In this document: positions 8,637 through 63,065 of the stretch, piece after piece
How positions within the stretch are numbered: position 1 is the stretch's first letter
How the letters are laid out: each line of letters starts with the position of its first letter
Origin: a virus
IMG/VR virus record: IMGVR_UViG_3300025164_000635
Span: 1 to 64,000 of that record
Strand: one strand, 5' to 3'
Length of the DNA stretch: 64,000 bases
Notes under the pieces: model-generated
Told to the model about the DNA's origin: nothing
Databases searched by the model: none
Seen by the model: the letters and a program-made list of their open reading frames with translations, nothing else
Position numbers and translations under genes: made by a program

Positions 8637-8648
8637 CGCCCTTCCTTG

Positions 8649-8677
8649 TTTATACATGAACCAAGAAGGGATGTCAA
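8649..8677 (-). promoter_or_regulatory. sigma70-type promoter, leftward
   Basis: minus strand TTGACA (8677-8672), 17-nt spacer, TATAAA (8654-8649). Confidence 0.7.
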
Positions 8678-23177: not shown

Positions 23178-23611
23178 GTAAGGGTGTCCTCCATGACCCG
23201 GATCGTGACTGTCCAGTATTCCTGGGCCGGGGTGAGTTGTCGAATAGGAGGCTCAATGACCATCAGACACCGGTAGCCATTCCCGGCATCTCGATTGACC
23301 GGGAAAGTGGGAGCGTCGTCGTGCAGGATGGGCATGTAGTAGCAGGTCTCGCCGGACAGGGCAATCAAGGCGTCCTTCTCGGCGGGCGTGGCAGTCACCT
23401 GCATGATGGCATCCCGGAACGTTACAATGTCTCCAGCGTTCCTCAAGCGATGGACATGCAATGCACCCGTCAGACTGCGTTCCTGGGAGACGGCTGCGGT
23501 CAAGCGTTCCTCGGGTCCGGGCTGGGCCACATGGTACATCGTTGAGTCATGTACCGGTTCATCGTCACTGTCCAGGAAGAGGTGTATGTGGTTGTGGATG
23601 ATACTAGCCAC
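23174..23611 (-). CDS. distal tail protein-like
   Basis: small gene directly after the tape measure gene; synteny only. Confidence 0.45.
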   Translation of the reverse strand: MASIIHNHIHLFLDSDDEPVHDSTMYHVAQPGPEERLTAAVSQERSLTGALHVHRLRNAGDIVTFRDAIMQVTATPAEKDALIALSGETCYYMPILHDDAPTFPVNRDAGNGYRCLMVIEPPIRQLTPAQEYWTVTIRVMEDTLT

Positions 23612-26600: not shown

Positions 26601-29600
26601 ACTACCCAGTCCTAAGCCACCAGCGGCCAGGGCGTAAGAGCCCAGTGAGGGCTGATCAGGATCTTCCATTCCAAGAACGCCCGAGGTGGCCTCCATGACG
26701 GGTCCCATGATGTCCCATCCAGCCCGACCGACCGACAGACCAAACCTTTGAGCCGCAACCTGCCCACGTCTGACGGTTCCGGCTGGCCCAAAGAAGCCAG
26801 CGGGTCCGCCCATCATAGCAACGTCCTGCTGTTGGCCACCTAGGAACTTGGCGTAATCGTCCATGCGCCCTGTAATCTGGCCGCCTGTCATACGCCAGGC
26901 ACGTTGCAGGTTCCAGGCGGCAAAGGCGATCTGACTGACATCGCCCTCACCAAAGATACGACCCATGGCGCTGCGCGCCGATCGTTGGAGAGCGGCCCTG
27001 GATAGCGGGTCTTGATCCTCGGCGCCCGCTTCCCGGAGTTGGACGATTTGTTGTCCAACCGCTCTTCTCTGCTCAGGCGTGAATCCCAATTCCTGGAAGA
27101 GGCCCCGCAGGCTGCGTGCGGCCTGTATGTCCCCCTGCGGGCCGGCCGCGGCCATCATCTCCTGTGCCCATTTCCGTTCAGCAGGAGCCTCCCTACCCTG
27201 CTGGATGCGCTTCAGGACATCCCCGAAATCCTCAGTGTGTCGGCGTGCCGTTTGAAGGGTCTCTCCGAAATCTTTGAGATACTTGTTCGTCTCCTTCTGT
27301 TGGATCGCGGCGGCCGCAATCTGCCGGAAGTTCTCGGCGGTCGACTCGGGCCCCACTGCCCCACCACCGAGTGTCTTCATTTCCGCGAATCGTTCTGCAA
27401 TGAACTTCTCGGTCACCCGGCCCGATTCGAGACGGCGGAACGTCTCGGCCGCGGCCGGAGTCATCTTGCCTTGGAACATCTGCTCAAGTACACCGCCTTC
27501 GTATCTTTCTCCTCCTTCAGTTGTGCCAGGCGGGAATGTTTCTGCCATGGCCTGGCCGAAAGTCTGTCCCTCTTTGATGCGCTGTCTGATGATCGACAAC
27601 TGCTCCTGAAAGCGCTCACCCCCGTACTTATAACCAAGATTCTTTGGACGTCCCTGGTACATAAGAACCCGACCGATGGCTCTCCCAACATCTCCCCCTT
27701 CCTCGGTGAGGAGCTTGACGAAATCACCCATCGACTGTGCGGCAATGTCGGCTGGAACCTGGCCCGGCTCTTTGTAGCCGGTCGTCGTCGAGGCTTCCCG
27801 TTCGGCTTTTGCTTGTGCTCGCCGACGAGCAACAAATTCAGCCGTCTCAATCCCGCTTCCTTCCTGGAAGATGCCGGCTGCGCGAGCCGATTCTCCAGGG
27901 GTAACCCCACCTGGTGTCTGGGGCGTGAGCCTCGGCTCGGGTGGTGTCTCAGGCTCAGGTGGTATTGCCATCACAGGCGGTCTTCTACTGGGTGGCTTGC
28001 GTCCACCGCCTCCCTGGGCACGAGGAGTTGGCGCTGGGGCAGTCGGATCGAAACGAGCTGCTAGTTCTTCAGGGCTCAACTCACCAGACACACGAGCCTT
28101 CATGGCCGCGTCCAGCCGATCCCGTTCCTCCTTGGCTATCTTCCGCCGCGCCTCTAGTAGCTCGCGTTCTTCGTCGTTTATGTTGGCTAGGTTCCCAGAA
28201 GAACCTGGATTGTCATACTCATCGAGGCTTGGAACTCCCACTCCCAGACGGATACGCTGCATCGCCTCCCAGGATTTCTGGCGGAACGCTTCCAGGCCAC
28301 GGGAGACTGTCTCAGTCACGTAAGTCGGAAGCAGGCCAGCGGAAGCCAGGTCGGACAATAGTCCACGAGCTCTCTCTTCCTCGTCCTCAGACTTTTCGCC
28401 TGTCACCCAAGGCGCGATATTGCCGCTTTCCAGACGTTGGGCGGCTAGCATCGGGGTTGCTAGGCGCTCGAAGAAGCCGAATCCACCGGTCGGCTGCCGT
28501 CCCTTAGCGGTCTGCTGGAAGTTGGTGTACTGTGGATTGTTGATGACATCTCGCATGATGCCACGCAGCCAGGGCGCTTTACTCTGAACACCCCGGTTGG
28601 TGATACGAGTGCCAATCACGGCTGTCAGAGGGCCTGCCTCTTTCCAGAAGCCCTGCTCACCGCCCATCCCCTGAATTAGGTCGTTGACCAGCTCTTCGGT
28701 CACGTCGTCACGGGTGACCCCCTCAAGCCTCTTGGCAATTCCTGTTCTCGTCTCAGGATTGGACGAAAGGAGGGTTGCCACGTCCCGATGCCAGGCTTTG
28801 TTGAGCTGTTCTTTAGTGGGGTCGGCAAAGCCACGGAACTCCTCGGCTTCCAGGACAGCCCGGATGATCTCCTTGGGGAGGGCCTGGAAGTCAACTTCTC
28901 GCTCGGGCGGCTTGCCCATTGTGGGATCGAGGGTTTCCCGAATCTTGCCGCGTACCCGACCTCGGCTGGTCGGGTCGTCTTCCCCGCCCGTCCTCAACGA
29001 ATAGGAGTTCATGATGCCCATCAGGGTTCTCATGCCGGACGAGACCGGCTCGTCCAGAGAAGCTTGATAGGCGAAATAGGAGGTACGCGCCAGAGTATCC
29101 TGTTCGCTCTGGGTGTTCATACCCATCGACTTCATCGCGATGGACAGGTTCCTTACAAACGGGTTGAACACATCGCCCCGCTGCTTCTGGGCAATCTGCT
29201 CGACGAGGTATGCCTGACGAGCGTCCTTGGTGGTGACCGAGGCGTTCATCTGCTCCAGGCTACCAAAGAACTCATCGGCCGTCTTGGGCGCCTTGCCGAC
29301 ATTCTGCATCCACTTGGCGAGTTCGGATGCCTTCATGCCGGTTCGTCTGACCAGATCATCCTCAACCGTCAAGTAGTTCTCCCAAGTGCGCTGACCGTGT
29401 ACCTGCTCACCGGTCACCAGCTCCAGGAACCGGAACTGCCGTTCCAGGAACTCTTCCTCTGTGGATCTCCTGGCGGCCTCGCCCGGCGTGGTGATGGACT
29501 TGCCAATCTTGAACACGGTGGCCAGGAAGAGAGCCACCTGGTCCCCATCTGCGTCCCCTTGGAAGCGGTTGGCGATCATCTGGGAGAAAGCCATCCCCTG

Positions 29601-32600
29601 GAAGTTCCGAGGAACGGGGATTCCCAAGCGGCCCGCCTCGGCGGTCGTCACGATCCGGAAGCCCGGCATGGACGTTACGCCTTGTAGCACGTCTGGTCGC
29701 CTCTGGCCCAAGGCGGTCATACCTGTCTCAACGTACCGATCCAGTGCCTCCTGGCTCATATCCCCTGAAGGCATACCGGTCAGTTCCCGCAACGCTTTTT
29801 CACCAACGATGACTTCCATAGGACGGGCGCCGGGAATGAAGGCATACGTCCCTTCTGTCCCCATGCGACCTGTCACATCTGAGGAGACCAACCCTTTCGC
29901 CACGGCCTTTGTGCCCATCAGTCGATTCATCCGATCACGTACCTGGCCGAAGGCACGCGCCTCTTCATTTGAGCCGGCCCGGGCTTTGACGAGCGTCTCG
30001 TAATAGTGGATGATCGCGTTATGTTCCTCTTGGGGGAACACGTCCTTCTCGGTGCCGGGAATGGGGTTGACCATTCCCGTGACTTCACTCGGAACGCTCA
30101 TGATCGACATCTGCGGCAATGGCGGAGTGATCACTCCGCCCCCAATGTCAACATACCGGCCTGGCGTAACCTGAGCCATCTTCTCAACAAACGAGAGCTC
30201 AGATGGTAGCTTGGCGATCTCTTCTCGGAGGTCTGCTAGGCTGACGACATTCATGTCCTCGCGAGTGGTTGGGTCCCGTGAGGCAGTAGCCGATTTCAGC
30301 AGACTCTCGTAATACTGGCGCTGGTGCCCTCCTTCCCGGAGTGCCCTTTCGGCCATACGAGGCGGCATGGCCTGCAACTCACCGAGCGTGGCCTGAGCCC
30401 GGCCCGTCCAGAGTTTCTCCATCTGGAACATGCGGCCGCCGACCGGCATCGCCCCCTGGAAGGTGACTTCCCGACGCTCGTTCCGATTCTGCCGCCAGTC
30501 ATCCCAGTCGATCTGGCCCAACGACTCCCGCCCATGAACACGGGCGTAGGTTTCGGCCTCCTCGTAGCTGACCGGGATACTCATGCGGACGTTCTGCTTC
30601 ACCATCTGCTGCTGAATGGCTCGTCCGATTTGGATGATGTAGGGGTCTAGTTTTTCGCCCCAGATCAGGCGTTTGCCGGTGATGGCCGCCTTGCTCTTCC
30701 GGGCCCACTCCCGTTCTTCGGGATCATAGTCCTCGACCAATCCTTCTTTGTAAGGGTCAAGACCCATCGACTGAAGCGTTTTAGTTAACAGCTCAAAGCC
30801 GCGTTTCTTGGTAGCGTAATAGTCACTCACCAGCGAGAAAAGTTCCTGACGAGGCGCTTGTGCAACTGGCATCAGCGCTTCAATGTTCAGGGCACCCCCC
30901 TCAACCCGTTTATTCAAGTCCTCGTAGGCCATGCCAACCGCTTTGTTTCCGAGCCAGGACTTGATCAACTCCTGCTCACCGCTAACCTTCCCCACGCCCT
31001 CCACCCGCAGCATGGACTCGCCACTCTCATAATGCTGGAAGGCGCGATTGACTGCAAACTGCATGAACTGCTTGGCCTTGAACGCTATCTCCCGGGCGTG
31101 CCCCAGCCGCCCCAGGGGGATTGAGCCACCGGTCTGCCGGCGATAGGCTTCCTCGTCCGGTGTAAAGTCCACACCCGAAGGAAGAGGGATGTCTTCCTGG
31201 TGGGGAAGGACAAAGCCGCCCTGGGCATCCATCTGCCGCATGGTTGCGGCGTCCATCAACATCATGCCTTCTGGCAAGTTCGGGGTGTACCCCACATTGA
31301 AGTGGATGCCTCGCTCAGAACGAGGAGCTCCTTCCATGCGGAACGGGGAGATGATGTTCCGACCCGTTTCAGGGGCCGCCGAGAGCATGTAGTCCCGGCG
31401 TGCAGCCATCGACACCCGTTTGCGGATCTTGGCAATCTGCTCCAGCAGAAGACCCGCTCTGATTCTTCCCGGCGTAGAAACATGGCCGGGAAGAGCCTTG
31501 TTGAGTTGCTCAATGTCATAGCCCAAGCTTGGATCACGTCCACGTGCCACCAGGCCGCCCGACTTCTCGTACCATCTCTGGACGGTCATCGGGTCGCCAG
31601 ACTCGCGTTCCTGACCTACTTGGTTGATCTTCACAGCCAACTGGTTCAGGGCTTCTCCGGCCGCGGTCGACGTCTCGCCAAAGACAGGCCCGACTCTGGG
31701 CATCCCTTCCATGAGCTTGCGGCGTCTCTCGTTCACGAGACGCATGGCCGCCCGGGGAGTCATCCCCTCTCCAATGGATTTACGCCACACGTGCATCAAC
31801 TCCGAGAAGATCTCGGGCTGGACGGGCCTCATGCCGGCTTCAAACTGGACGGGCGTGACAAGCACATCATCGATCGTCGGCTGGCCACGGAACTCACCCA
31901 ATCGCCCTTCCTGGACGACCGGCATCTCCCCCGTTTCCTTCTCGGAGGCAATGTCGGGCAGAATGAAGCGGCCGCCCTGGGTGAGAATGGACTTGGCTCC
32001 CAGAATCTCTTTGACGCGGCCGTAGGCCACACGTGCAAAGCCCAGAGGGGATGTTTCGGCAACTGGCTCGGTTGGCTTTTCGGCAGCCCTCTGCGGGAGA
32101 CGGGTCGGATCAAAGCTACTGACCCCGATCTCTTGCATATGAGATTGAAGCTCTTTGATAGCCTCTTCTTCCGAGAAGTCTCCCTTCCGGGCGCCCTTCG
32201 CCAGCATGCCGGCGATCTCGTACAGCGCCCGCATATCTCGCCGCCAAGCAAACGGGATGACAGGCGAGCCGGGTTCGCCAGTGCCTCTCTCGAACTCACT
32301 CAGTCGATGGGGGTGAAATCCAGTCCACTTCTCAATGAGACCTGCCTCATCAGAGGCGGCACGGATGGGGGTATAGAGAGTGCCGCCGGGCTGAAACTCT
32401 TTGGCCTCGGCCACAGGCCGCTCAGAATAGGTGATGTTCTTAACCGGTACTAGCTCCGAGGAAAGATGAGGGATTTCCTCGACGTTCTGACCCGTCATAC
32501 GCCTCATGATCTGGCGGGCGTACTCAACCCGGTTCTCTTCGTTCAGGCCGTGCCAAGCGACGATGATGTCTGTCGCAATGGTCTTGGGAGCAAAGAACAG

Positions 32601-33065
32601 GCTGGCCTTTGCTCCTGGGGCAAGGCTTTCTCGGAGTGCGTGGGCATACATTTGGGGCTGGAGAAAATAGCCCTCTTCCTTCGGGGTGCCGGTGTATTTC
32701 TCAGGCTGGAAGTGGACCTTCTCGGTGGGCGTGGAGACCTTAACGTCTGAGACGTTGATGATCTTATCGCCACCGTTCCAGAGCACGACGTCAGGCCGTC
32801 CCTTATAGGGAATATCGTAAGCTCTGCCGGTCAGCCCCTTGATCTGAGTGGAGATACGCGCAACGCCCGTCCCGGAAAGAGTCTCAGGATGGGCTTTTAC
32901 GAAGGGGATCAGTGTGTCTGAGACAAACTGATCGAACTCTTCACCGTGCTTGATGTCTTCAGATGACCAGAAACCCTGCTTGGGATCGCTGGAGAGGTAG
33001 GGCCAGCCTTTAGCGGAATAAGCGGCCGCGCTCGGTCTGACTTCGGGACGATCAGGAGGAGGCAT
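23604..33065 (-). CDS. giant tape-measure protein fused to a putative two-barrel RNA polymerase and an N-terminal PD-(D/E)xK domain
   Basis: tape-measure position after tail tube and chaperones; C-terminal Gly/Ala hydrophobic and Q/E/R helical repeats; QRRP and RFQGDADGDQVALF (aa ~1121, ~1171); KSWLGNKA..EDL (aa ~700); GRPD..DVK..QPQMY (aa ~92-140). Confidence 0.8.
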   Translation of the reverse strand: MPPPDRPEVRPSAAAYSAKGWPYLSSDPKQGFWSSEDIKHGEEFDQFVSDTLIPFVKAHPETLSGTGVARISTQIKGLTGRAYDIPYKGRPDVVLWNGGDKIINVSDVKVSTPTEKVHFQPEKYTGTPKEEGYFLQPQMYAHALRESLAPGAKASLFFAPKTIATDIIVAWHGLNEENRVEYARQIMRRMTGQNVEEIPHLSSELVPVKNITYSERPVAEAKEFQPGGTLYTPIRAASDEAGLIEKWTGFHPHRLSEFERGTGEPGSPVIPFAWRRDMRALYEIAGMLAKGARKGDFSEEEAIKELQSHMQEIGVSSFDPTRLPQRAAEKPTEPVAETSPLGFARVAYGRVKEILGAKSILTQGGRFILPDIASEKETGEMPVVQEGRLGEFRGQPTIDDVLVTPVQFEAGMRPVQPEIFSELMHVWRKSIGEGMTPRAAMRLVNERRRKLMEGMPRVGPVFGETSTAAGEALNQLAVKINQVGQERESGDPMTVQRWYEKSGGLVARGRDPSLGYDIEQLNKALPGHVSTPGRIRAGLLLEQIAKIRKRVSMAARRDYMLSAAPETGRNIISPFRMEGAPRSERGIHFNVGYTPNLPEGMMLMDAATMRQMDAQGGFVLPHQEDIPLPSGVDFTPDEEAYRRQTGGSIPLGRLGHAREIAFKAKQFMQFAVNRAFQHYESGESMLRVEGVGKVSGEQELIKSWLGNKAVGMAYEDLNKRVEGGALNIEALMPVAQAPRQELFSLVSDYYATKKRGFELLTKTLQSMGLDPYKEGLVEDYDPEEREWARKSKAAITGKRLIWGEKLDPYIIQIGRAIQQQMVKQNVRMSIPVSYEEAETYARVHGRESLGQIDWDDWRQNRNERREVTFQGAMPVGGRMFQMEKLWTGRAQATLGELQAMPPRMAERALREGGHQRQYYESLLKSATASRDPTTREDMNVVSLADLREEIAKLPSELSFVEKMAQVTPGRYVDIGGGVITPPLPQMSIMSVPSEVTGMVNPIPGTEKDVFPQEEHNAIIHYYETLVKARAGSNEEARAFGQVRDRMNRLMGTKAVAKGLVSSDVTGRMGTEGTYAFIPGARPMEVIVGEKALRELTGMPSGDMSQEALDRYVETGMTALGQRRPDVLQGVTSMPGFRIVTTAEAGRLGIPVPRNFQGMAFSQMIANRFQGDADGDQVALFLATVFKIGKSITTPGEAARRSTEEEFLERQFRFLELVTGEQVHGQRTWENYLTVEDDLVRRTGMKASELAKWMQNVGKAPKTADEFFGSLEQMNASVTTKDARQAYLVEQIAQKQRGDVFNPFVRNLSIAMKSMGMNTQSEQDTLARTSYFAYQASLDEPVSSGMRTLMGIMNSYSLRTGGEDDPTSRGRVRGKIRETLDPTMGKPPEREVDFQALPKEIIRAVLEAEEFRGFADPTKEQLNKAWHRDVATLLSSNPETRTGIAKRLEGVTRDDVTEELVNDLIQGMGGEQGFWKEAGPLTAVIGTRITNRGVQSKAPWLRGIMRDVINNPQYTNFQQTAKGRQPTGGFGFFERLATPMLAAQRLESGNIAPWVTGEKSEDEEERARGLLSDLASAGLLPTYVTETVSRGLEAFRQKSWEAMQRIRLGVGVPSLDEYDNPGSSGNLANINDEERELLEARRKIAKEERDRLDAAMKARVSGELSPEELAARFDPTAPAPTPRAQGGGGRKPPSRRPPVMAIPPEPETPPEPRLTPQTPGGVTPGESARAAGIFQEGSGIETAEFVARRRAQAKAEREASTTTGYKEPGQVPADIAAQSMGDFVKLLTEEGGDVGRAIGRVLMYQGRPKNLGYKYGGERFQEQLSIIRQRIKEGQTFGQAMAETFPPGTTEGGERYEGGVLEQMFQGKMTPAAAETFRRLESGRVTEKFIAERFAEMKTLGGGAVGPESTAENFRQIAAAAIQQKETNKYLKDFGETLQTARRHTEDFGDVLKRIQQGREAPAERKWAQEMMAAAGPQGDIQAARSLRGLFQELGFTPEQRRAVGQQIVQLREAGAEDQDPLSRAALQRSARSAMGRIFGEGDVSQIAFAAWNLQRAWRMTGGQITGRMDDYAKFLGGQQQDVAMMGGPAGFFGPAGTVRRGQVAAQRFGLSVGRAGWDIMGPVMEATSGVLGMEDPDQPSLGSYALAAGGLGLGSLFALAGGGRLASMAGLGVLGRPMTGLAENIAGGVVGRAGGLARGVRGLGETAALRGMYALEGRALGRLALRGAGVGGGLVGGALGIGLLGGELLGEAGANIGEAQGGETGASIGRVAGTGAGILGTRALLGARLAGGGAITGPLTGGIALGGAIYDETIGRQQGITAGQIVNQLLGGIDTGARLLVASLSQSADVWKDAQRTGAMWAERAEGSSREGSKATQEAAEQMKKFADYSRFGKELEARMEAIRQPMEAGTGVKVGALLAQATGMDLQTMMRPESIKAMQQLMLLPPELQQQRMGLGVGMARAAGMEWGGAGFAGTIQQAISLTPQQQLRAQFNLGQISPIGGLAQQYGVQLPALTPDLITNLSPEQRTMLTRVGSLDPVAISREATRLQGMQPQLQQAQFAQNLRAEATRMQDMTLAQQNITQEAREQRDRDRSLMQQGASFLFPETAIRAAAVGGQRGIFGAGQAIAAQMGQVQQVIQRAIPTTQPDFRSLIQVEPETLQRAGTTDVSMFAPSDWAMGQRLYGRTTAPIDTGMNLVQAQSQARMADRAYQQFQYQQQLAQLGRQQVYQLGGQIGGYDFTGGFNIEQAQLGEGARAQRRQFQLQAGTMNYGWLGRGADAFQGMGGEYADLERMGAAGLGYRQFYENLEQQRRVSGIQRGRTEEDVQRQYQRQMTGLGWQEQDLTVNFERSMTRFTQSLQDLTTNFQRGQTQFGWQRENLAFQGSQQALSFGWQMEDIDTAMRYATGRERRQLSRQRERGVVGYGMQVEQLGREGERLEERQQWAQEDFNRERNRLEERRGWAEEDFGKEKDRIDTRREWAEEDLARALERLLEQGKLDEEQFGLRAKQFEEDQKMAKLRHDESVKHFSITNGLQVKAFEDRKKQFEIESAAQAVSLIKTMLHTAEVIRLQDQIGVLTSAMSYRFDRFSEDIKDPNGKLANSLNAIVLDISGALGSAHQPYFKGHDTVFRAFERLTEAVVANVNRAVQELTSG

Positions 33066-52476: not shown

Positions 52477-54879
52477 ATGTCGTTCACGTCATTTCGCTCT
52501 ACCCGTAAGGTGGTTGTGGTGGACCGCTTCGGGCGACCCACCGGAGAGGAAAGGATTCTCTCTAACAGCCCGATCGACGCCCTGTTCCCTGACGAGAAGA
52601 TCGTCATGGTGAACTGGAAGTACGAGGGCGCGAAGGCGCCCACCGCTGAAGAGTTGCGCCGGCCGATCCGCCACGGCGGCAACGAGTACCGTGGTGACTG
52701 GGCCTGGGGCAGCAGCGTCAAGCGCGGATACACTGTGGGCCTGACCCGTGACCTGCTGGTGGACACGGGATTGCTGAACTGCTGTGAGGACGCCCACCGA
52801 TTCGGTCGGGCGTTCCTTGCCAACGGCCTGTATGGGGCCGGGAAGGGTGAGCTGCACATCAAGTTCGTGCCCGAAGGGACTCAGACCCTGGCCGGCCCGG
52901 TGGCGGACGGCTTCGGGTATGTGAGACGCTCGGTGGCCGAGAAGATGAATGCCGGACACGACAAGATCAAGTTCGGCACCGCGCGCGACTCGTCGCACTG
53001 GTGGCAGCGCATTCCCTGGACATCCGAGATCCAGGAAGAGCTGGAGCCGCTTCTGCGTGACAACCTGGTGGAGGCTGGTGACCCCGGGTTGTGGATGTTG
53101 AGGCAGTTAGGCGACCGCGATCAGGGTCGCCGCCACCTGGTCGAAGCCGAGCCGTTGATGGCTGAGCACCCGTATGTGGCGAACATGCTCATGAGGGTGT
53201 CCTCAGACATCCTGGCCCGGGCGGCCACGACGGTCCCCCTGAATCACGCGGTGAAGGTTACTGTGCCCGCGAACGTCCCCAACATCGCTGTGGACGGGAA
53301 AACACTGAGCACGCGCTACCCGATCGATGCCAAGAACTCCATCCGGGCGAACAACAACACGCTCAACACCGTGGAAGCCGAGATGGAGCGGATTGCCGAG
53401 ATGGAGCGGATTGCCCAGATGGAGGTCATTCAGTATGGCATGACCTCCATGGGTGACCATCCCTTCTCGGCTAAAGGCTGCGCCGGGATCGTTGACGATG
53501 ATCTCCTCGATGCCGACTTCGTGTTGTGCACGAAGGACATCAAGATGGGTGACAAGAAGTTGGTGGACATCAAGGCGGAGATCGTGGTCTCGGTGACCCA
53601 GTGGTTTGCCCAGGGCGAGGCGGTCGGTGTGAATACGAAGTTCTGGGCCGACCAGGGCGGTGATTGCGACGGCGATCTGGCGTTGATCGCCGATTGCAGT
53701 GAGTTGCCCCGCCTGTGGGAGGCGGTTAGCGGGTTTGGGCTCCAGCCCACGCCCAAGCTCATCAAGACTCACACGAAGCTGGAGGACGAGGACATCCGGG
53801 GTGAGTTGGCTGAGAAATCCATGCTGAATGTGGTCGGCATGGCAGTCAACCTCATGGCTGCGACGTTTGTCACGGCCAACCGGGAAGAGATGGCCCACCG
53901 CCTGGGCTATGCGAGTGAGGCTGCCCTGGATAACGCCCTGAATTACTGGGTGAAAGCAGGCACGGATCTCTTCAAGGTGTCTGTCGACACCAAGCAGCTC
54001 ATGCAAGATCTCTCTCGGTTCCAGAGCAAGCTGGTCAATGTGCTCGGTACGCTGCCGCCGTGGGTGAGCTGGCCCAACGACTGGGCCTTCACGCACGGCG
54101 TCCCGTCCTTCTGGAACGAGGACGAGATGGGTCACCTGAAGAGCGACGATCCTGTTCGGAAGAATGCCGTTCCTACCAATTCCTGGTACGACGGGACCAT
54201 CGTCCAGATCATGAGGCTGACCCTGCTCGCCCTCAGCGCGATGCTGAGCCATACCCTGGCTGTGCGGCCGCTGCATGACTTCCAGAGATGGGCCCTGGTT
54301 GTGCCGGACAGTGTTCTGGGGCCCGCGATCGGTCTCCAGAAGATGTTCGTAGCCGAGTCCCAGCGCGTCAACTGGGAGTGGCCCCAGGATGTCGTCCGCT
54401 TCAGCCAGTGGTGGGCCGAGAAGGTCGCCACCTGGAAGAACGAGATGGGCCTGGATGACACCCTAGCCTGCGCTGCTATCTGGCGCGCGGCCCATGACAT
54501 GCGGAGCAAATACGCCGGGGCGTCGTCTGTGTTCATGGCCTTCCCGGAAGAAGTACTGGATATTCTCCGGGATAAGCCCGGCCTCTCCAAGTTGGTGTCT
54601 GGTGTCATCCTCGGCCTGCCCGAAGTGACCGAGGAGACGGTCATCCAGGGCACCGTTCGGGAGTTCAAACGCAAGGACTCACAGTCCGGCCGGACCGTCA
54701 TCCGCAAGTGCTTGGTGGACGGTAACTCGGGCCTACCCCATATGCCCGACATCAACTACCCGGGCGCGATTGCCGTCTTTGCTTCGGATCACCCGTCGCC
54801 CGAGAATGGGCTGAAGGTGACCGTCAAGGTCACCCGGCGCACCAAGAAGTCCTGGTTCGCTGATTGCATCTGCCAGTAG
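52477..54879 (+). CDS. single-subunit two-barrel RNA polymerase (YonO / cellular-RdRP-like)
   Basis: ADGFGYV, TRYP, QY...SAKGC...DFVL..KDIK, catalytic GGDCDGD (53662-53676), G...N...AGTDLFK. Confidence 0.8.
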   Translation: MSFTSFRSTRKVVVVDRFGRPTGEERILSNSPIDALFPDEKIVMVNWKYEGAKAPTAEELRRPIRHGGNEYRGDWAWGSSVKRGYTVGLTRDLLVDTGLLNCCEDAHRFGRAFLANGLYGAGKGELHIKFVPEGTQTLAGPVADGFGYVRRSVAEKMNAGHDKIKFGTARDSSHWWQRIPWTSEIQEELEPLLRDNLVEAGDPGLWMLRQLGDRDQGRRHLVEAEPLMAEHPYVANMLMRVSSDILARAATTVPLNHAVKVTVPANVPNIAVDGKTLSTRYPIDAKNSIRANNNTLNTVEAEMERIAEMERIAQMEVIQYGMTSMGDHPFSAKGCAGIVDDDLLDADFVLCTKDIKMGDKKLVDIKAEIVVSVTQWFAQGEAVGVNTKFWADQGGDCDGDLALIADCSELPRLWEAVSGFGLQPTPKLIKTHTKLEDEDIRGELAEKSMLNVVGMAVNLMAATFVTANREEMAHRLGYASEAALDNALNYWVKAGTDLFKVSVDTKQLMQDLSRFQSKLVNVLGTLPPWVSWPNDWAFTHGVPSFWNEDEMGHLKSDDPVRKNAVPTNSWYDGTIVQIMRLTLLALSAMLSHTLAVRPLHDFQRWALVVPDSVLGPAIGLQKMFVAESQRVNWEWPQDVVRFSQWWAEKVATWKNEMGLDDTLACAAIWRAAHDMRSKYAGASSVFMAFPEEVLDILRDKPGLSKLVSGVILGLPEVTEETVIQGTVREFKRKDSQSGRTVIRKCLVDGNSGLPHMPDINYPGAIAVFASDHPSPENGLKVTVKVTRRTKKSWFADCICQ

Positions 54880-59607: not shown

Positions 59608-59639
59608 TTGACAAACTCTTGATTGGGTGTATAATCAAG
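59608..59639 (+). promoter_or_regulatory. consensus sigma70 promoter overlapped by an inverted repeat
   Basis: TTGACA (59608-13), 16-nt spacer, TATAAT (59630-35); CTTGATT-N8-AATCAAG (59618-59639). Confidence 0.8.
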
Positions 59640-59809
59640 TCCAAGAATGGGGAAGGGGAGAAGCAAGCCGACTGGGGATACCTTCGTATTGACTCCCCTA
59701 CCCTCTTCCTGGCTGAGGATTGAATGTGCGAGTGTTCTCTCATCCTTCTTACCCACGTGTGGACATTGCGCTCCGTTTCGATTCTCCCCTGTCCGAGAAG
59801 GAATAGGTC

Positions 59810-60136
59810 ATGAATTGCGTCATCAACTTCTCACATCCGCTGACCGAATATCAGTACAAGGATCTCTCAGAGCAGCTTGGCCACTTCACCGAAGTATATA
59901 AGCCTGTCCAGTTCGATATGGTCACGGGCAACCTGCGCCGAGAAGTGGAGACCCTGCTGAATGACACCGTGCAAGACATCTCGGAGATTGTCGCCATTAT
60001 CCCGCCAAAGTTGAGCGTGGCGGCCTATTGGATGGCGCTCGAGATGGAAGCGCTGGGATGGCACAATGTACCAGCCGTCTACTTTATTCATGACTCCAGC
60101 GTCCCCCCTCAGTTTGTCGTGGGCGGTGTAGAGTGA
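59810..60136 (+). CDS. Csx15-like protein (type III CRISPR ancillary family), candidate cOA ring nuclease/sponge
   Basis: INFSHPLT, PVQFD, PP.LS.AA, SVPPQF.V match the recalled Csx15 pattern. Confidence 0.7.
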   Translation: MNCVINFSHPLTEYQYKDLSEQLGHFTEVYKPVQFDMVTGNLRREVETLLNDTVQDISEIVAIIPPKLSVAAYWMALEMEALGWHNVPAVYFIHDSSVPPQFVVGGVE

Positions 60137-60301
60137 TCTGGCTATTCTTCGCACTCATCATGTTTCTGGTCATCGACTACCATCGCTTGCGAAGGGCCTG
60201 GAAGGGACCCGGGCCTTTCGATGGACAAGGCTATCCCAGCTCAACGCTGCGGCTTCTGATCGTAGCAACGGTAGTCGCCATACTCCTGCTGAGGTGAAAT
60301 C

Positions 60302-60559
60302 ATGAAAGTCTATCGACAAACATTCCAAGTCACCGGGTTAGGCTCCTTCCCACTCGACATGCTCCGATATGATGAGTGCTATCCGCGCACAGAGCGAGAT
60401 ACAGCTCTGATCGATCAGTCTTTCCAGGAAGCCAACGTGCAATACATTGGCCTTGAGCGCATCCTCACCGATGAGGCGAAAGACCCCACATTCGATCGCT
60501 GGAAGTCATTCCTGTGGGCAGTTGTGAAGAATAGCATCGTGACAGAGCAAATCAAATGA
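60302..60559 (+). CDS. phage hypothetical protein (G.G.FP.DMLRYD.C.P...PT..RW.SF.W)
   Basis: GAGGTGA RBS; distinctive motif. Confidence 0.65.
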   Translation: MKVYRQTFQVTGLGSFPLDMLRYDECYPRTERDTALIDQSFQEANVQYIGLERILTDEAKDPTFDRWKSFLWAVVKNSIVTEQIK

Positions 60560-60792
60560 GCTCCGATCTCAGACCCGAGAAGGTCATATTGCAATTTGTC
60601 CAGGAAGCCGAAGAGCAGGGCCGGACACTGGCCGAGATTGCCAAGCACACCGGTCTCTTCCAGGCGCAGGCCGCTGTCATGCTCCAGACCTGGGAGAACG
60701 AGGGCTACCTTGTCCGGCACATTAACACCTATGGGGCACCGGGAAAGGAAAGGACGGTCGCGCGCTGGTACGCGACCCCCAAGAAGGACTGA
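60556..60792 (+). CDS. winged-helix DNA-binding protein
   Basis: G.TLAEIAKHTGL...L..WE.EGYL.R. Confidence 0.65.
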   Translation: MSSDLRPEKVILQFVQEAEEQGRTLAEIAKHTGLFQAQAAVMLQTWENEGYLVRHINTYGAPGKERTVARWYATPKKD

Positions 60793-60824: not shown

Positions 60825-61151
60825 ATGGATCCCTCTTCAACAACCATCTTTCTATCCATCATGACCCTCATCACGCTCATGCTGGGCGGCCTGATCGCCG
60901 TAGACTATTACGATCGGTCCATCGCCCGATCGCGTGACTACGAGGTGAGGAAGCTCATCGTCGCTCCAGACGAAGTGGAGTTCACTGTTTACTTCCAGCG
61001 CCGGGCAGGATTTCGGTGTATCTCTCACACCGAAACCCTACGCGGGAAGAGGGAACTCCTCTTCGAGACGGGCAATATCCCAGAATGGGCCTTTGCTCGG
61101 GTGTCCACCATGCAGAGATACACGACACGACCCAGGAGTGCCCATGCCTGA
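60825..61151 (+). CDS. membrane-anchored hypothetical protein
   Basis: N-terminal TM helix; AAGGAG RBS. Confidence 0.6.
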   Translation: MDPSSTTIFLSIMTLITLMLGGLIAVDYYDRSIARSRDYEVRKLIVAPDEVEFTVYFQRRAGFRCISHTETLRGKRELLFETGNIPEWAFARVSTMQRYTTRPRSAHA

Positions 61152-61863
61152 TGAAGGACAATTGTCCTTCGTAGTTCAAGATGGAACCCACACTGAAAAA
61201 CCTAAAAGAGTAATCCGAGAAGTCATTGCCCGAGAGAACGTGACCTGGCGAGCCGATAACATAGGCGTGAAGTCGTTATCAACCCTGGAGCTCTTGTCCC
61301 TCGTCACGGGCGACGCCGAAGCTGCTGCAAACCTACTGGCCAGCAATGACATTGCCGACATGATGAAGATGAGTTGCGCCGAGATGACCAAGACCAAGGG
61401 AATCGGGAGGAAGCGTTCCTACCAGATATTGGCCGCTCTGGAACTGGGACGACGTTCCCTCACCACAGCGCCTATTGAGAGGACACAGATCCGCGCACCC
61501 GCCGATGCCGGCGACATCTTCATGGCCGACATGCAGAATCTGACCCAGGAAGAACTGCGTGTGATGGTGTTGGACACACGCAATCGAATCCTGGCAGTAC
61601 CCACCATCTACAAGGGATCTCTGAACACAACCTGGATTCGCACAGCCGAAGTATTCAAGCCGTGCATCTCCAGAGACGGGGCCGCCATCATTGTCGCGCA
61701 CAATCATCCAAGCGGTGATCCATCTCCTTCCTCAGAGGACATCAGCCTCACGAAGGAGATCATCAACGCCGGGAAGTTGCTGGACATCGAGGTACTCGAT
61801 CATCTCATCATCGGCCATCAGCGTTTCATCTCACTCAGGGAACGCGGCCTGGCCTTTGAATAA
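61144..61863 (+). CDS. radC: RadC family JAB/MPN domain protein
   Basis: LS..ELL, KGIG HhH, QEE..V..LDTRN, HNHPSGDPSPS.ED, LDHLIIG. Confidence 0.92.
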   Translation: MPDEGQLSFVVQDGTHTEKPKRVIREVIARENVTWRADNIGVKSLSTLELLSLVTGDAEAAANLLASNDIADMMKMSCAEMTKTKGIGRKRSYQILAALELGRRSLTTAPIERTQIRAPADAGDIFMADMQNLTQEELRVMVLDTRNRILAVPTIYKGSLNTTWIRTAEVFKPCISRDGAAIIVAHNHPSGDPSPSSEDISLTKEIINAGKLLDIEVLDHLIIGHQRFISLRERGLAFE

Positions 61864-61877
61864 AGGAGAACATAGCG

Positions 61878-62285
61878 ATGAACCACCTAAGCGCCTCTGA
61901 AGCATGTGAAGCGCACCGAAAGAGAATCACTGATAGGTTCGCTTCCATCCTGCGACAGCGATTCGAGGACCTCGACGAGGGTCATACCCTGCAAGCTGCA
62001 GAGCACGCGGCCTCTGCCTACATCGGATACCCTGAAGATTGGATCCGCAGACCCGAGACGGCCTTACTGAATTATCCCAAGCTGGTCGTCTGTGAATGCG
62101 GCAAACGATCGGTCGCGGAGTATCACTACGGAATCGGCTGGACACCGGTGGATCCCGAGTGGAAGATGCACCTGGGCTTTGAGCCGATGGTTTCTTACTG
62201 GTCATGTGGTCAGCCAAACCATAAGGCGACTGTTTGGCAGGAGTTGTTCATCCTGGAAGACATCCAGCAGGTGACCGAGCCATGA
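61878..62285 (+). CDS. hypothetical protein with Cys/His cluster
   Basis: AAGGAGA RBS; CECG...C...H. Confidence 0.6.
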   Translation: MNHLSASEACEAHRKRITDRFASILRQRFEDLDEGHTLQAAEHAASAYIGYPEDWIRRPETALLNYPKLVVCECGKRSVAEYHYGIGWTPVDPEWKMHLGFEPMVSYWSCGQPNHKATVWQELFILEDIQQVTEP

Positions 62286-62794
62286 TAAGGTTCAAGCTCA
62301 TCATCTACACCGATGGCTGTTGCTTCCCGGTGCCTAACTCAGCCGGGACAGGTGGCTATGCCGCCGTCCTACGCTATGGAGAGAGCACCAAAGAGATTGT
62401 CGGCGGTTTCCTGATGACCAATGCGCCTCGGATGGAACTCTACGGGGCACTCACGGCCCTGGAAGCACTCAAGAGGCCATGTCATGTCATCATCAGGAGT
62501 GACAGCAAGTACCTGGTCAATATGTTCGGGCAAGGGTGGGCCAGGAAGTGGAAGGCACAAGGATGGTACCTTGATCCCAGGGCCACCGTCCCACAGTTGG
62601 CCAAGAACGTTGACCTTGTGAGCCGGCTCCTGAACATGATTGATTCACACTTCTCGGTCAGGTTTGAGTGGGTGAGGGGCCACAACGGGGACCCCGATAA
62701 CGAGCGGTGTGACAAGCTGGCCCAGCAAGGAGCCGAAGAGGCTTACGAGCCGGACCCAGGCTACCAACCCAGACAGGAGGAGAGTGATGGGTAG
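62282..62794 (+). CDS. rnhA: ribonuclease HI
   Basis: YTDG, TN..RMEL, SDSKY, KNVDL, WVRGHNG.P.NERCDKLA. Confidence 0.93.
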   Translation: MIRFKLIIYTDGCCFPVPNSAGTGGYAAVLRYGESTKEIVGGFLMTNAPRMELYGALTALEALKRPCHVIIRSDSKYLVNMFGQGWARKWKAQGWYLDPRATVPQLAKNVDLVSRLLNMIDSHFSVRFEWVRGHNGDPDNERCDKLAQQGAEEAYEPDPGYQPRQEESDG

Positions 62795-63065
62795 CCAACC
62801 CAAGTACCGAGTCTGGTATGATGAGATGTCCGACCTCCTTCAGGAACCACTCACTCCTCGTGAGCAAGAAGTGGCGACCCTGGTTGTAGCCGGCCTGCGA
62901 AACAAAGAGATTGCTAACCGGCTCTGCATCAGTGTAGAGACGGTCAGGACGCATGTTGCCAATATCCTTGCCAAGCAGGGCATTTTAAGCCGGAAAGACA
63001 TCCGGTTGGGCGACTTGCAACCTGCCCCTTCCCTTGGCGTTCAAGCGGGAGAAAGCAAACCATGA
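62787..63065 (+). CDS. stand-alone LuxR-type HTH protein
   Basis: LTPREQEV..LV..GL.NKEIA.RL.IS.ETV.THV.NIL.K; no receiver domain. Confidence 0.9.
   Translation: MGSQPKYRVWYDEMSDLLQEPLTPREQEVATLVVAGLRNKEIANRLCISVETVRTHVANILAKQGILSRKDIRLGDLQPAPSLGVQAGESKP

What the first reader, a model, noticed from the sequence alone, without database searches (positions are those of the whole stretch)
59608..60136. Phage-encoded Csx15-like protein behind a consensus host promoter: candidate anti-type III CRISPR factor
Seen: a 108-aa protein with INFSHPLT...PVQFD...IIPPKLSVAA...SVPPQFVV, the first gene downstream of TTGACA-16-TATAAT and a ~170-nt leader; no cas genes or array are in the window. Established, from memory: NF(S/T)HPLT is the Csx15 signature, a type III CRISPR ancillary family linked to cyclic oligoadenylate turnover, and viral ring nucleases (AcrIII-1) neutralise type III immunity. 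Inference: a host-derived ring nuclease or cOA sponge repurposed as an anti-CRISPR.
Basis: partly seen in the sequence, partly recalled or inferred. Interest (0 to 1): 0.75.

Follow-up and report, generated by a model that had tools for sequence, protein, structure and literature searches.

The report
Phage Csx15 relative lacking tail face
A complete 95-kb uncultured phage carries, behind a perfect host-type promoter, a small relative of Csx15 (a bacterial protein that binds or cuts the cyclic-adenylate alarm of type III CRISPR). It keeps only one of the two ligand-binding faces, so it more likely traps the alarm than destroys it; this is untested, and the general idea of viral Csx15 is already in print.

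Summary
Observation confirmed. The 108-aa ORF lies at 59810-60136, about 168 nt behind the only perfect TTGACA-16-TATAAT in the window. The record is a complete 95-kb phage with no Cas10 and no CRISPR array.

Interpretation partly supported. The protein is a real Csx15 homologue: hhalign 99.8% against canonical Csx15, profile E 1e-5 to PDB 9tet, TM 0.84 to Csx15 models, AF2 pLDDT 95. On its own it fails NCBIfam's Csx15 cut-off (22 vs 35 bits).

It belongs to a deep, separate "tail-less" clade of about 70 clusters that ends just before the C-terminal Arg helix. The clade also lacks the second conserved His, and published work shows this tail face is needed for filament formation and cleavage. 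The head face is kept (N6, S8, H9, P10, Q34, D36, L68, F102), and a homodimer is predicted.

So a cA4 sponge is more likely than a canonical ring nuclease. This copy is also odd within its own clade (Q45E, K93I, R94H).

Of the six independent relatives with readable neighbours, one tail-bearing, five lie beside phage or mobile-element genes. In one Anaerolineales MAG the canonical Csx15 lies near Csm1, while the tail-less copy lies on a ParB/methylase contig.

Viral Csx15 ("AcrIII-3") was proposed in an October 2026 preprint, and this scan has noted similar genes on other DNA. Host and activity are unknown.

The parts
59608..59635 (+). Sigma-70-type promoter, TTGACA-16 nt-TATAAT (12/12)
   Evidence: the only perfect match in 64 kb, 0 of 100 shuffles; one of four sites with at least 11/12 in the whole 95-kb genome, all on the + strand.
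59618..59639 (.). Perfect inverted repeat CTTGATT-N8-AATCAAG overlapping the spacer and the -10 hexamer; candidate operator
   Evidence: the same palindrome with 1 mismatch sits at the same place in the promoter at 75299. About 0.8 sites with up to 2 mismatches are expected per shuffled genome. Function is inferred.
59642..59809 (+). Predicted 5' leader of about 168 nt
   Evidence: Follows from the promoter position. No Rfam family. Fold z-score -1.7, with 12 of 200 shuffles folding as well. No evidence of a regulatory RNA.
59797..59803 (+). Ribosome-binding site GAAGGAA, 6 nt before the ATG
   Evidence: Read directly from the sequence.
59810..60136 (+). 108-aa tail-less Csx15-family protein
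   Evidence: NF040560 Csx15 22.1 bits, E 1.4e-4, cut-off 35. PADLOC Csx15/20 model 8e-6. Family profile vs PDB 9tet Csx15 E 1.1e-5 and the CbCash Csx15 domain 1.9e-4. hhalign vs canonical Csx15 99.8%, E 2.7e-30. AF2 pLDDT 95.4. ESM Atlas TM 0.84 to Csx15 clusters. Predicted homodimer ipSAE 0.85 vs best control 0.01.
60133..60297 (+). 54-aa ORF with two hydrophobic segments; its GTG start overlaps the Csx15-like stop (GTGA), so it may be translationally coupled
   Evidence: No Pfam or PHROG match. Not conserved next to the relatives' genes. Whether it is a real gene is uncertain.

Best explanation
The gene encodes a phage-borne, tail-less member of the Csx15 (CARF/SAVED-like) family.

Proposed mechanism: host RNA polymerase transcribes it from a consensus sigma-70 promoter. 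A palindrome overlapping the -10 hexamer may gate that promoter. The protein forms a symmetric homodimer whose two motif-I loops (N6-F7-S8-H9-P10) meet at the two-fold axis. This conserved 'head' face (H9 and F102 stacking on adenines, plus L68, Q34 and D36) binds cyclic tetra-adenylate or a related cyclic oligonucleotide made by the host's type III CRISPR Cas10.

The protein lacks the 'tail' face: the alpha-5 Arg triad and the second conserved His. It therefore cannot build the head-to-tail filament with the composite active site that canonical Csx15 uses to cut cA4. It would act mainly by sequestering the signal (a sponge), lowering activation of cA4-dependent effectors during infection.

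Shown here: homology, fold, which residues are present or absent, phage location, promoter sequence. Inferred: ligand binding, sponge action, anti-CRISPR role, timing of expression.
For: Homology and fold:
- hhalign of the tail-less alignment against the canonical alignment gives 99.8%, E 2.7e-30 over 112 columns.
- The family profile hits PDB Csx15 9tet at E 1.1e-5 and the Csx15 domain of CbCash 9ylu at 1.9e-4.
- All 18 close relatives hit NF040560.
- AF2 pLDDT is 95.4. ESM Atlas gives TM 0.84 to 125-aa Csx15 clusters. The VIA search is topped by SAVED and CARF domains, Z 5.8-7.0.

Head face kept:
- N6, H9, P10, D36 and P66 are invariant in close relatives.
- H9 is present in 73 of 77 tail-less sequences and F/Y/W102 in 76 of 77.
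- In HaCsx15, H8 and F106 stack on adenines A2/A4, and L71 lines the A1/A3 pocket (10.64898/2026.10.26.761840).
- In CbCash, a single Csx15-domain dimer binds cA4 through F241, F275 and R204 without a second dimer (PMC13462974). By the alignment these correspond to L68, F102 and Q34 here.

Tail face absent:
- All tail-less sequences stop just before the NLQxxRxxARxRR helix that every canonical member carries.
- The canonical invariant His at column 80 (58/58) is E here. Canonical R91 and R101 are also missing.
- Published mutants: HaCsx15 R125A abolishes cleavage, R118A abolishes filaments, and CliCsx15 H90A loses oligomerisation.

Dimer: ipSAE 0.85 against a best control of 0.01; runs agree in at least 91% of contacts; partner pLDDT at least 89. 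The mark was reached by 20 of 30 solved homodimers and 1 of 23 monomers. The interface is helix 65-77 plus residues 89-93, with S8 at the axis. This may partly reflect likeness to solved CARF dimers.

Mobile-element context of relatives:
- L009: head scaffold and major head protein immediately downstream.
- L005: primase-like PHROG.
- L006: phrog_1818.
- L002: ParB and a C5 methylase.
- In MAG G001 the canonical Csx15 lies about 8 kb from Csm1 (634 bits), while the tail-less copy is on another contig.
- Among the 31 best Csx15-type loci in 401 Chloroflexota genomes, 30 are tail-bearing.

Precedent: PfCsx15 acts as a cA4 sponge, and CliCsx15 relieves cA4-mediated immunity in vivo (PMC13148439).
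Against: - No biochemical data exist for any tail-less or viral Csx15.
- This copy departs from its own clade at positions conserved in both clades or in the tail-less clade. Q45 (75/77 tail-less, 57/58 canonical) is E here. The basic pair K/R93-K/R94 is I-H, and W91 is Y. It is strongly acidic, net charge -9. Ligand binding may be weakened or altered.
- In PfCsx15 the tail arginines and H82 contribute to binding, so a head-only site may bind weakly.
- The host is unknown, so no type III system is tied to this phage.
- The largest tail-less subgroup gave no hit in IMG/VR and its genomic context could not be examined. The clade as a whole is therefore not shown to be viral.
- The near-invariant H9 would also fit a catalytic role.
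Confidence: 0.45

Rival explanations
1. It is an active ring nuclease after all. H9 acts with other residues, or a different stacking geometry lets the tail-less dimer cleave cA4 or other cyclic oligonucleotides. That would make it a true AcrIII-3-type enzyme.
For: H9, the catalytic motif-I histidine of HaCsx15, CsCsx15 and CliCsx15, is kept in 73 of 77 tail-less sequences. CARF ring nucleases such as Crn1 cleave on a single dimer face (PMC13148439). The tail-less clade has its own conserved basic pair at columns 93-94.
Against: HaCsx15 R125A (tail) abolishes cleavage although binding and filaments persist, and H8 alone is insufficient (10.64898/2026.10.26.761840). This protein has no tail helix and no column-80 His. 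It also lacks the clade's own K93/R94 pair, having I93/H94 instead.
Confidence: 0.15
2. It is a nucleotide sensor or regulator used by the phage for its own programme, or it binds a ligand other than cOA. On this reading it is not an immune antagonist.
For: Csx15 domains serve as cA4 sensors in Cash effectors, where motif-I His is Q (PMC13462974). The gene heads an operon with a winged-HTH protein, a LuxR-type HTH protein, a RadC-like JAB protein and RNase H. Its stop overlaps the start of a possible small membrane ORF. Q45E and the loss of the basic pair suggest altered specificity.
Against: There is no fused or conserved partner domain. Neighbours differ in every related locus. Stand-alone CARF/SAVED-like proteins on phages characterised so far (AcrIII-1, AcrIII-2) are antagonists.
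Confidence: 0.15
3. It is a one-faced cap. The dimer presents a head but no tail. It joins the end of cA4-induced head-to-tail filaments of host Csx15- or SAVED-type proteins and stops their growth, blocking effector activation.
For: Canonical Csx15, CalpL and AcrIII-2 work through head-to-tail stacks held mainly by ligand contacts from both faces (10.64898/2026.10.26.761840; PMC13148439). The clade has cleanly lost one face and kept the other.
Against: Purely inferential. Capping the host's own ring nuclease would help the host, not the phage. In CbCash filaments cA4 does not bridge dimers (PMC13462974). The simpler sponge model explains the same residues.
Confidence: 0.08
4. It is a decaying or neutral passenger gene with no current function in this phage.
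For: This copy alone carries E at the near-universal Q45 and has lost the clade's W91, K93 and R94. There are no close relatives in IMG/VR, GenBank phages or plasmids.
Against: The frame is intact with a good RBS and sits as first gene behind the strongest promoter type. The AF2 model is very confident. All head-face residues are intact. The identical protein is seen on 27 contigs, and the stretch is held by about 20 soil, sediment and groundwater runs.
Confidence: 0.1

Closest known systems
Canonical CRISPR-associated Csx15 (NCBIfam NF040560): HaCsx15 and CsCsx15 (bioRxiv 10.64898/2026.10.26.761840); CliCsx15 and PfCsx15 (PMC13148439; PDB 9tet and 9teu)
   Same: Same fold and same family at profile level. 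It shares the NFSHPLT motif-I loop with the catalytic/stacking His, the QxD motif, the PPxL motif, the stacking Phe at column 102, and dimerisation through the helix after PPxL.
   Different: It ends 13-16 residues early, so the alpha-5 helix with the three conserved arginines is missing (Ha R118/R122/R125; Pf R116/R120/R123). The invariant His-Gly at columns 80-81 (Pf H82, Cli H90) and canonical R91 and R101 are also missing. It scores 22 bits against a cut-off of 35. It is encoded by a phage with no cas genes, whereas canonical members sit near cas10 (the preprint).
'AcrIII-3' / vCsx15: viral Csx15 homologues proposed from Lokiarchaeota virus Skoll and more than 20 metagenomic viral sequences (bioRxiv 10.64898/2026.10.26.761840, section 'Csx15 homologs in viruses')
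   Same: A Csx15 homologue carried by an uncultured virus from IMG/VR, proposed to counter type III signalling. It is untested, as those are.
   Different: The preprint describes vCsx15 as structurally close to HaCsx15 and expects ring-nuclease activity. Its main text mentions no tail-less form, and its profiles were built after removing truncated sequences. I could not see its Figure S8, so I cannot say whether this sequence or its clade is among the 20.
PfCsx15 as a cA4 sponge (PMC13148439), and phage cyclic-nucleotide sponges in general
   Same: Proposed mode of action: stoichiometric sequestration of cA4 by a Csx15 dimer with no or negligible turnover.
   Different: PfCsx15 still has both faces and sequesters cA4 by stacking into filaments. 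The protein here could only use one face.
Csx15 domain of CbCash (PDB 9ylu; PMC13462974)
   Same: The profile match covers the whole domain (E 1.9e-4). cA4 is bound by one dimer only, through residues that align with L68, F102 and Q34 here. This is a precedent for head-only binding.
   Different: CbCash is a fusion to a Schlafen tRNase and acts as an effector's sensor. Its motif-I His is Gln, and it retains 17 residues beyond the point where this protein ends.
AcrIII-2 / viral SAVED ring nuclease (PDB 9r8s) and AcrIII-1 (Crn2/DUF1874)
   Same: Viral proteins that remove cA4. AcrIII-2 is a structural neighbour (Z 5.8, rmsd 2.7 A over 89 residues) and has a catalytic His at the equivalent motif-I position (PMC13148439).
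   Different: AcrIII-2 is a two-lobed SAVED monomer of about 240 aa that stacks head to tail. AcrIII-1 has an unrelated fold. There is no sequence-level match to either.

Membership tests
Csx15 (NCBIfam NF040560, equivalog) | Whole-protein score at or above the curated cut-off (35 bits) | tested here: not met
   22.1 bits, E 1.4e-4, covering model positions 2-78 of 125. Ten relatives score 21-36.5 bits, and only P0009 and P0011 pass.
Csx15 (NCBIfam NF040560, equivalog) | Homology to canonical Csx15 over the whole domain | tested here: met
   hhalign A4 vs A6: 99.8%, E 2.7e-30, 112 columns. Profile vs PDB 9tet E 1.1e-5. All 18 relatives hit NF040560.
Csx15 (NCBIfam NF040560, equivalog) | CARF/SAVED-like Rossmann-type fold (five-stranded sheet flanked by helices) | tested here: met
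   AF2 pLDDT 95.4, with elements in the order strand, helix, strand, helix, strand, helix, strand, strand. ESM Atlas TM 0.84 over 106 residues to 'CRISPR-associated protein Csx15' clusters. The best VIA rows are SAVED and CARF domains, Z up to 7.0 at rmsd 3.0-3.5 A over 96-99 residues, which alone is only middling.
Csx15 (NCBIfam NF040560, equivalog) | Motif-I histidine (Ha/Cs H8, Pf H11, Cli H13) | tested here: met
   H9 within NFSHPLT.
Csx15 (NCBIfam NF040560, equivalog) | Stacking aromatic residue (Ha/Pf F106, Cli Y113) | tested here: met
   F102. The column is F/Y in 58 of 58 canonical sequences and F/W/Y in 76 of 77 tail-less sequences.
Csx15 (NCBIfam NF040560, equivalog) | Second conserved histidine (Pf H82, Cli H90) | tested here: not met
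   Column 80 is H in 58 of 58 canonical sequences, E in this protein, and L/S/A in the tail-less clade.
Csx15 (NCBIfam NF040560, equivalog) | C-terminal alpha-5 helix with three conserved arginines (Ha R118/R122/R125; Pf R116/R120/R123) | tested here: not met
   The protein ends at ...GGVE. All canonical members continue with NLQxxRxxARxRR. The next ORF is in another frame and starts with a hydrophobic segment.
Csx15 (NCBIfam NF040560, equivalog) | Homodimer | tested here: met
   Prediction only: ipSAE 0.85 against a best control of 0.01, contacts agree in at least 91%, partner pLDDT at least 89. The mark was reached by 20 of 30 solved homodimers and 1 of 23 monomers. It may reflect likeness to solved CARF dimers.
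Csx15 (NCBIfam NF040560, equivalog) | Genomic association with type III CRISPR (cas10) | tested here: not met
   No Csm1 match in the 95-kb phage and no array in the window.
Csx15 (NCBIfam NF040560, equivalog) | cA4 binding, ligand-induced filament formation, cA4 cleavage | not testable with these tools
   Needs purified protein.
AcrIII-3 (proposed viral Csx15, bioRxiv 10.64898/2026.10.26.761840) | Csx15 homologue encoded by a virus | tested here: met
AcrIII-3 (proposed viral Csx15, bioRxiv 10.64898/2026.10.26.761840) | Ring-nuclease activity that neutralises type III immunity | not testable with these tools
   Untested for any viral member. The residue pattern here argues against the canonical mechanism.
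Csx20 (NCBIfam NF040559) | Score at or above the cut-off (70 bits) | tested here: not met
   14.4 bits, E 0.037. PADLOC Csx20 models give E 0.0017-0.0032 over the N-terminal half only.
AcrIII-1 / Crn2 (DUF1874) | Pfam-level match to the family | tested here: not met
   No Pfam family at E up to 10.

The most novel reading that the evidence does not exclude
The tail-less Csx15 clade is a natural 'half-site' protein. It counters cyclic-nucleotide defence by capping rather than by removing the signal. A dimer with a ligand-binding head but no tail joins the growing end of cA4-induced head-to-tail assemblies of host SAVED- or Csx15-type effectors and terminates them. This would be a new anti-defence principle: filament poisoning of cOA-activated effectors.
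Probability: 0.08. Interest if true: 0.75.

Novelty: new variant of a known kind. Interest (0 to 1): 0.45.

Why it matters
Csx15 was shown only in 2026 to be a filament-forming ring nuclease or sponge whose active site is built from two faces of stacked dimers. A natural clade that keeps the head face and has cleanly lost the tail face is a ready-made separation-of-function test of that model. It asks whether one face alone binds cA4 and whether that is enough to blunt immunity.

If the phage-borne members work as sponges, they would be the first functional evidence for viral Csx15 ('AcrIII-3'). They would also add a third structural solution, after AcrIII-1 and AcrIII-2, by which viruses silence type III signalling.

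The gain is incremental. The concept is in print, no activity is shown, and this copy is an outlier within its own clade.

Tried and rejected
- IMG/VR scans with P0001, P0002, P0003 and alignments A2 and A5 found no relatives. Alignments A1 and A3 were too divergent for pattern scans.
- No tblastn hit in GenBank phages or PLSDB plasmids.
- Single-sequence phmmer against PDB gave nothing meaningful.
- Foldseek against PDB gave no match at E <= 0.001. The fold-search libraries listed no solved Csx15 entry, so no direct structural superposition on 9tet or 9teu was possible.
- Pfam and PHROGs gave nothing for the protein itself. An ESM Atlas feature hit to Pam3_gp32 (0.89, below the 0.9 line) has no Pfam support and is dismissed.
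- Leader RNA: no Rfam family and no significant structure.
- Expression: no RNA holder listed among the sequencing runs.
- Host search: a 20-kb phage segment against 401 Chloroflexota genomes matched mainly the conserved RadC domain. The few short high-identity hits, six of which I checked, are not in CRISPR arrays. No host link was found.
- A frameshifted or displaced Arg tail was considered and rejected. About 70 clusters end at the same GGIE position.
- A recent host-to-phage transfer was rejected on the tree.
- L003/L012 (Methanosarcinales) turned out to be tail-bearing, so it is not a member of this clade.

Full report
**1. The observation**

The ORF at 59810-60136 (+) is real. It is 108 aa, starts at ATG and has a GAAGGAA ribosome-binding site 6 nt upstream.

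TTGACA-16 nt-TATAAT sits at 59608-59635. It is the only perfect match in the 64-kb window, and none arose in 100 dinucleotide shuffles. Across the whole 95-kb genome only four sites reach 11/12 or better. All four are on the + strand: 59608, 75299, 79082 and 86602.

The implied leader is about 168 nt. It matches no Rfam family and does not fold better than shuffles (z -1.7).

**2. The setting**

The window is part of an IMG/VR virus record of 95,304 bp that CheckV rates 100% complete. It encodes a large terminase, a portal, a head protease and a DNA methyltransferase by PHROGs.

No Csm1/Cas10 match exists in the phage, and the window holds no CRISPR-like array.

Downstream on the same strand lie these ORFs:
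- a 54-aa hydrophobic ORF whose GTG start overlaps the stop codon;
- an 85-aa member of phrog_11674;
- a winged-HTH protein;
- a RadC-like JAB protein;
- RNase H;
- a LuxR-type HTH protein.

The same DNA is held by about 20 soil, sediment and groundwater metagenome runs from 2015-16.

**3. What the protein is**

- On its own it gives a sub-threshold match to NCBIfam Csx15: NF040560, 22.1 bits, E 1.4e-4, cut-off 35, model positions 2-78 of 125.
- It matches PADLOC's Csx15/20 model at 8e-6 and no Pfam family.
- An exhaustive phmmer search of 1.8 billion representatives found only 18 relatives, of 97-156 aa. N6, H9, P10, D36 and P66 are invariant among them, and all 18 hit NF040560.
- Their profile matches solved Csx15 (PDB 9tet, E 1.1e-5) and the Csx15 domain of the Schlafen effector CbCash (9ylu, E 1.9e-4).
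- AlphaFold2 on this alignment gives pLDDT 95.4.
- The ESM Atlas model of the same sequence superposes on 125-aa 'CRISPR-associated protein Csx15' clusters at TM 0.84 over 106 residues.
- An exhaustive PDB fold search is headed by SAVED and CARF domains (Cap5, Cap14, TIR-SAVED, CalpL, Card1, Csx1-Crn2, Csa3, viral SAVED AcrIII-2). Z is 5.8-7.0, which is middling but matches what is published for Csx15 (PMC12409355).

**4. A distinct tail-less clade**

A profile search returned 164 proteins that fall into two length classes. In a joint alignment, 58 canonical sequences of about 126-130 aa carry a C-terminal NLQxxRxxARxRR helix. Seventy-seven sequences, this one included, end immediately before it at ...GGIE.

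Column statistics:
- Canonical Csx15 has invariant or near-invariant H80-G81, R91, R93 and R101 plus the Arg triad. The tail-less group has none of these.
- The tail-less group keeps N6, S/A8, H9, P10, Q34, D36, Q45, P65-P66, L68 and F102. It also has its own W91-L92-K93-R/K94 motif.

The two groups align at 99.8% probability (E 2.7e-30). A long branch with SH-aLRT 100 separates them in a quick maximum-likelihood tree. For that tree I left out eleven fragmentary, fused or duplicate rows. The careful search did not finish, so only this deep split is used. This protein groups with P0002 and the L005 homologue (support 89).

**5. What the missing parts do in characterised Csx15**

- In HaCsx15 and CsCsx15, cA4 is sandwiched between the head of one dimer and the tail of the next.
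- H8 and F106 on the head stack on adenines A2 and A4, and L71 lines the A1/A3 pocket.
- R118, R122 and R125 of helix alpha-5 on the tail contact the phosphates and adenines.
- R125A abolishes cleavage and R118A abolishes filaments. Filaments are held mainly by protein-ligand contacts (10.64898/2026.10.26.761840).
- In CliCsx15, H13A abolishes ring-nuclease activity. H90A leaves only very low activity and abolishes cA4-induced oligomerisation. PfCsx15, which has all these residues, is nevertheless a sponge (PMC13148439).
- In CbCash, one Csx15-domain dimer binds cA4 with no contribution from another dimer, through F241, F275 and R204 (PMC13462974). By the alignment these correspond to L68, F102 and Q34 here.

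The protein therefore retains the head site and lacks the whole tail site.

A homodimer is predicted with ipSAE 0.85 against a best control of 0.01. Contacts agree in at least 91% of cases and partner pLDDT is at least 89. The mark was reached by 20 of 30 solved homodimers and 1 of 23 monomers. The interface runs through helix 65-77, with S8 of both chains at the axis, as expected for a CARF-type head site. This pass may owe something to solved CARF dimers.

**6. Where the relatives live**

None were found in IMG/VR beyond the own record, nor in GenBank phages or plasmids.

Genome and metagenome scans gave nine loci. L004, L006 and L008, and probably the fragments L007 and L010, are copies of the P0002-type element. 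Six independent settings had readable neighbours, and the neighbours I could name are phage or mobile-element genes in five of them:
- L009: head scaffold and major head protein directly downstream;
- L005: a primase-like PHROG;
- L006: phrog_1818;
- L002: ParB and a C5 methylase, on an Anaerolineales MAG contig;
- L003: portal and Mu-F, on a Methanosarcinales MAG contig. That copy proved to be tail-bearing.

In the Anaerolineales MAG (G001) the canonical Csx15 lies about 8 kb from Csm1 (634 bits) on one contig. The tail-less copy lies on the ParB/methylase contig.

In a sample of 401 Chloroflexota genomes, 73 have a Csx15-type match. Of the 31 best loci, 30 are tail-bearing.

This supports a mobile-element habit for this protein's sub-branch.

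**7. Peculiarities of this copy**

It is the only one of the 77 tail-less sequences with E at Q45, a position near-invariant in both clades. It also has Y91, I93 and H94 where its clade has W, K/R and K/R. Its net charge is -9. This lowers confidence that it binds the ligand as its relatives would.

**8. Mechanism and rivals**

- Best reading (0.45): a head-only Csx15 dimer, made from a host-type promoter, that sequesters cA4 or a related signal.
- An unconventional nuclease (0.15).
- A sensor, or a binder of a different ligand (0.15).
- A decaying passenger gene (0.10).
- A filament cap (0.08).

**9. Comparison with what is known, and novelty**

Viral Csx15 was proposed as 'AcrIII-3' in October 2026 from a Lokiarchaeota virus and more than 20 metagenomic viral sequences, without any assay. 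An earlier survey of 28,114 phage genomes listed no Csx15 among the ring nucleases it found (PMC12409355), which agrees.

The preprint's main text does not mention a tail-less form. This scan has already reported similar phage Csx15 relatives on other DNA, including a tail-less phage-borne branch.

The finding is a new variant of a known kind. It is of moderate interest as a natural half-site test of the composite-site model.

**10. Host**

The host is unresolved. A 20-kb segment searched against 401 Chloroflexota genomes hit mainly the conserved RadC domain. The six short high-identity matches I checked are not in arrays. Csx15 is common in Chloroflexota, and the nearest genome-borne tail-less copy is in an Anaerolineales MAG. 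That is only a weak hint.

Noticed in passing
window 59618-59639; also genome 75310-75331 (beyond the window) and window 8645-8665: A perfect inverted repeat CTTGATT-N8-AATCAAG overlaps the spacer and -10 hexamer of the promoter at 59608. The same palindrome with 1 mismatch sits at the same position in the 11/12 promoter at 75299, and a weaker version (2 mismatches, spacing 7) lies at 8645. It looks like a shared operator. The winged-HTH gene at 60556-60792 in the same operon is a candidate repressor.
   Followed up: partly
whole genome G000: 59608, 75299, 79082, 86602 (all + strand): Only four sigma-70-like sites reach 11/12 or better in 95 kb, all on the + strand in the right-hand third of the genome. 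The one at 79082 carries a direct repeat ATCTGTGATA x2 instead of the palindrome.
   Followed up: partly
L003 / L012 (Methanosarcinales MAG contig), match at L003:10001-10219: A tail-bearing (canonical-type) Csx15 homologue ending ...RIRQDGRMKR lies a few kb from a portal protein and a Mu-F-like head protein. It is probably an archaeal virus or provirus carrying a full-length Csx15.
   Followed up: partly
G001 (Anaerolineales MAG): C494:3861-4193 and C494:11890-14301 against C210:17991-18305: One genome holds both forms. The canonical Csx15 lies about 8 kb from Csm1/Cas10. The tail-less copy lies on a separate contig with ParB and a C5 cytosine methylase.
   Followed up: partly
L007:124-360 and L007:861-1169: This metagenome contig carries a truncated 78-aa copy and, 500 nt downstream, a full copy of the P0002-type tail-less Csx15. 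It is a partial tandem duplication or an assembly variant.
   Followed up: no
window 60133-60297: A 54-aa ORF with two hydrophobic segments starts at a GTG that overlaps the Csx15-like stop codon (GTGA). It has no family match and is not conserved beside the relatives.
   Followed up: partly
window 61093-61863, 62234-62794, 62709-63065: A RadC-like JAB protein (Pfam 6.5e-40), RNase H (8.9e-30) and a LuxR/sigma-like HTH protein follow in the same + strand block. The RadC core is about 70% identical in DNA to genes in many Chloroflexota genomes.
   Followed up: no
window 23604-33065 (-) and 52477-54879 (+): A 3,153-aa ORF sits in the structural module, and an 800-aa ORF has no PHROG match. Earlier notes of this scan read RNA-polymerase motifs in both. 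I did not test that.
   Followed up: no
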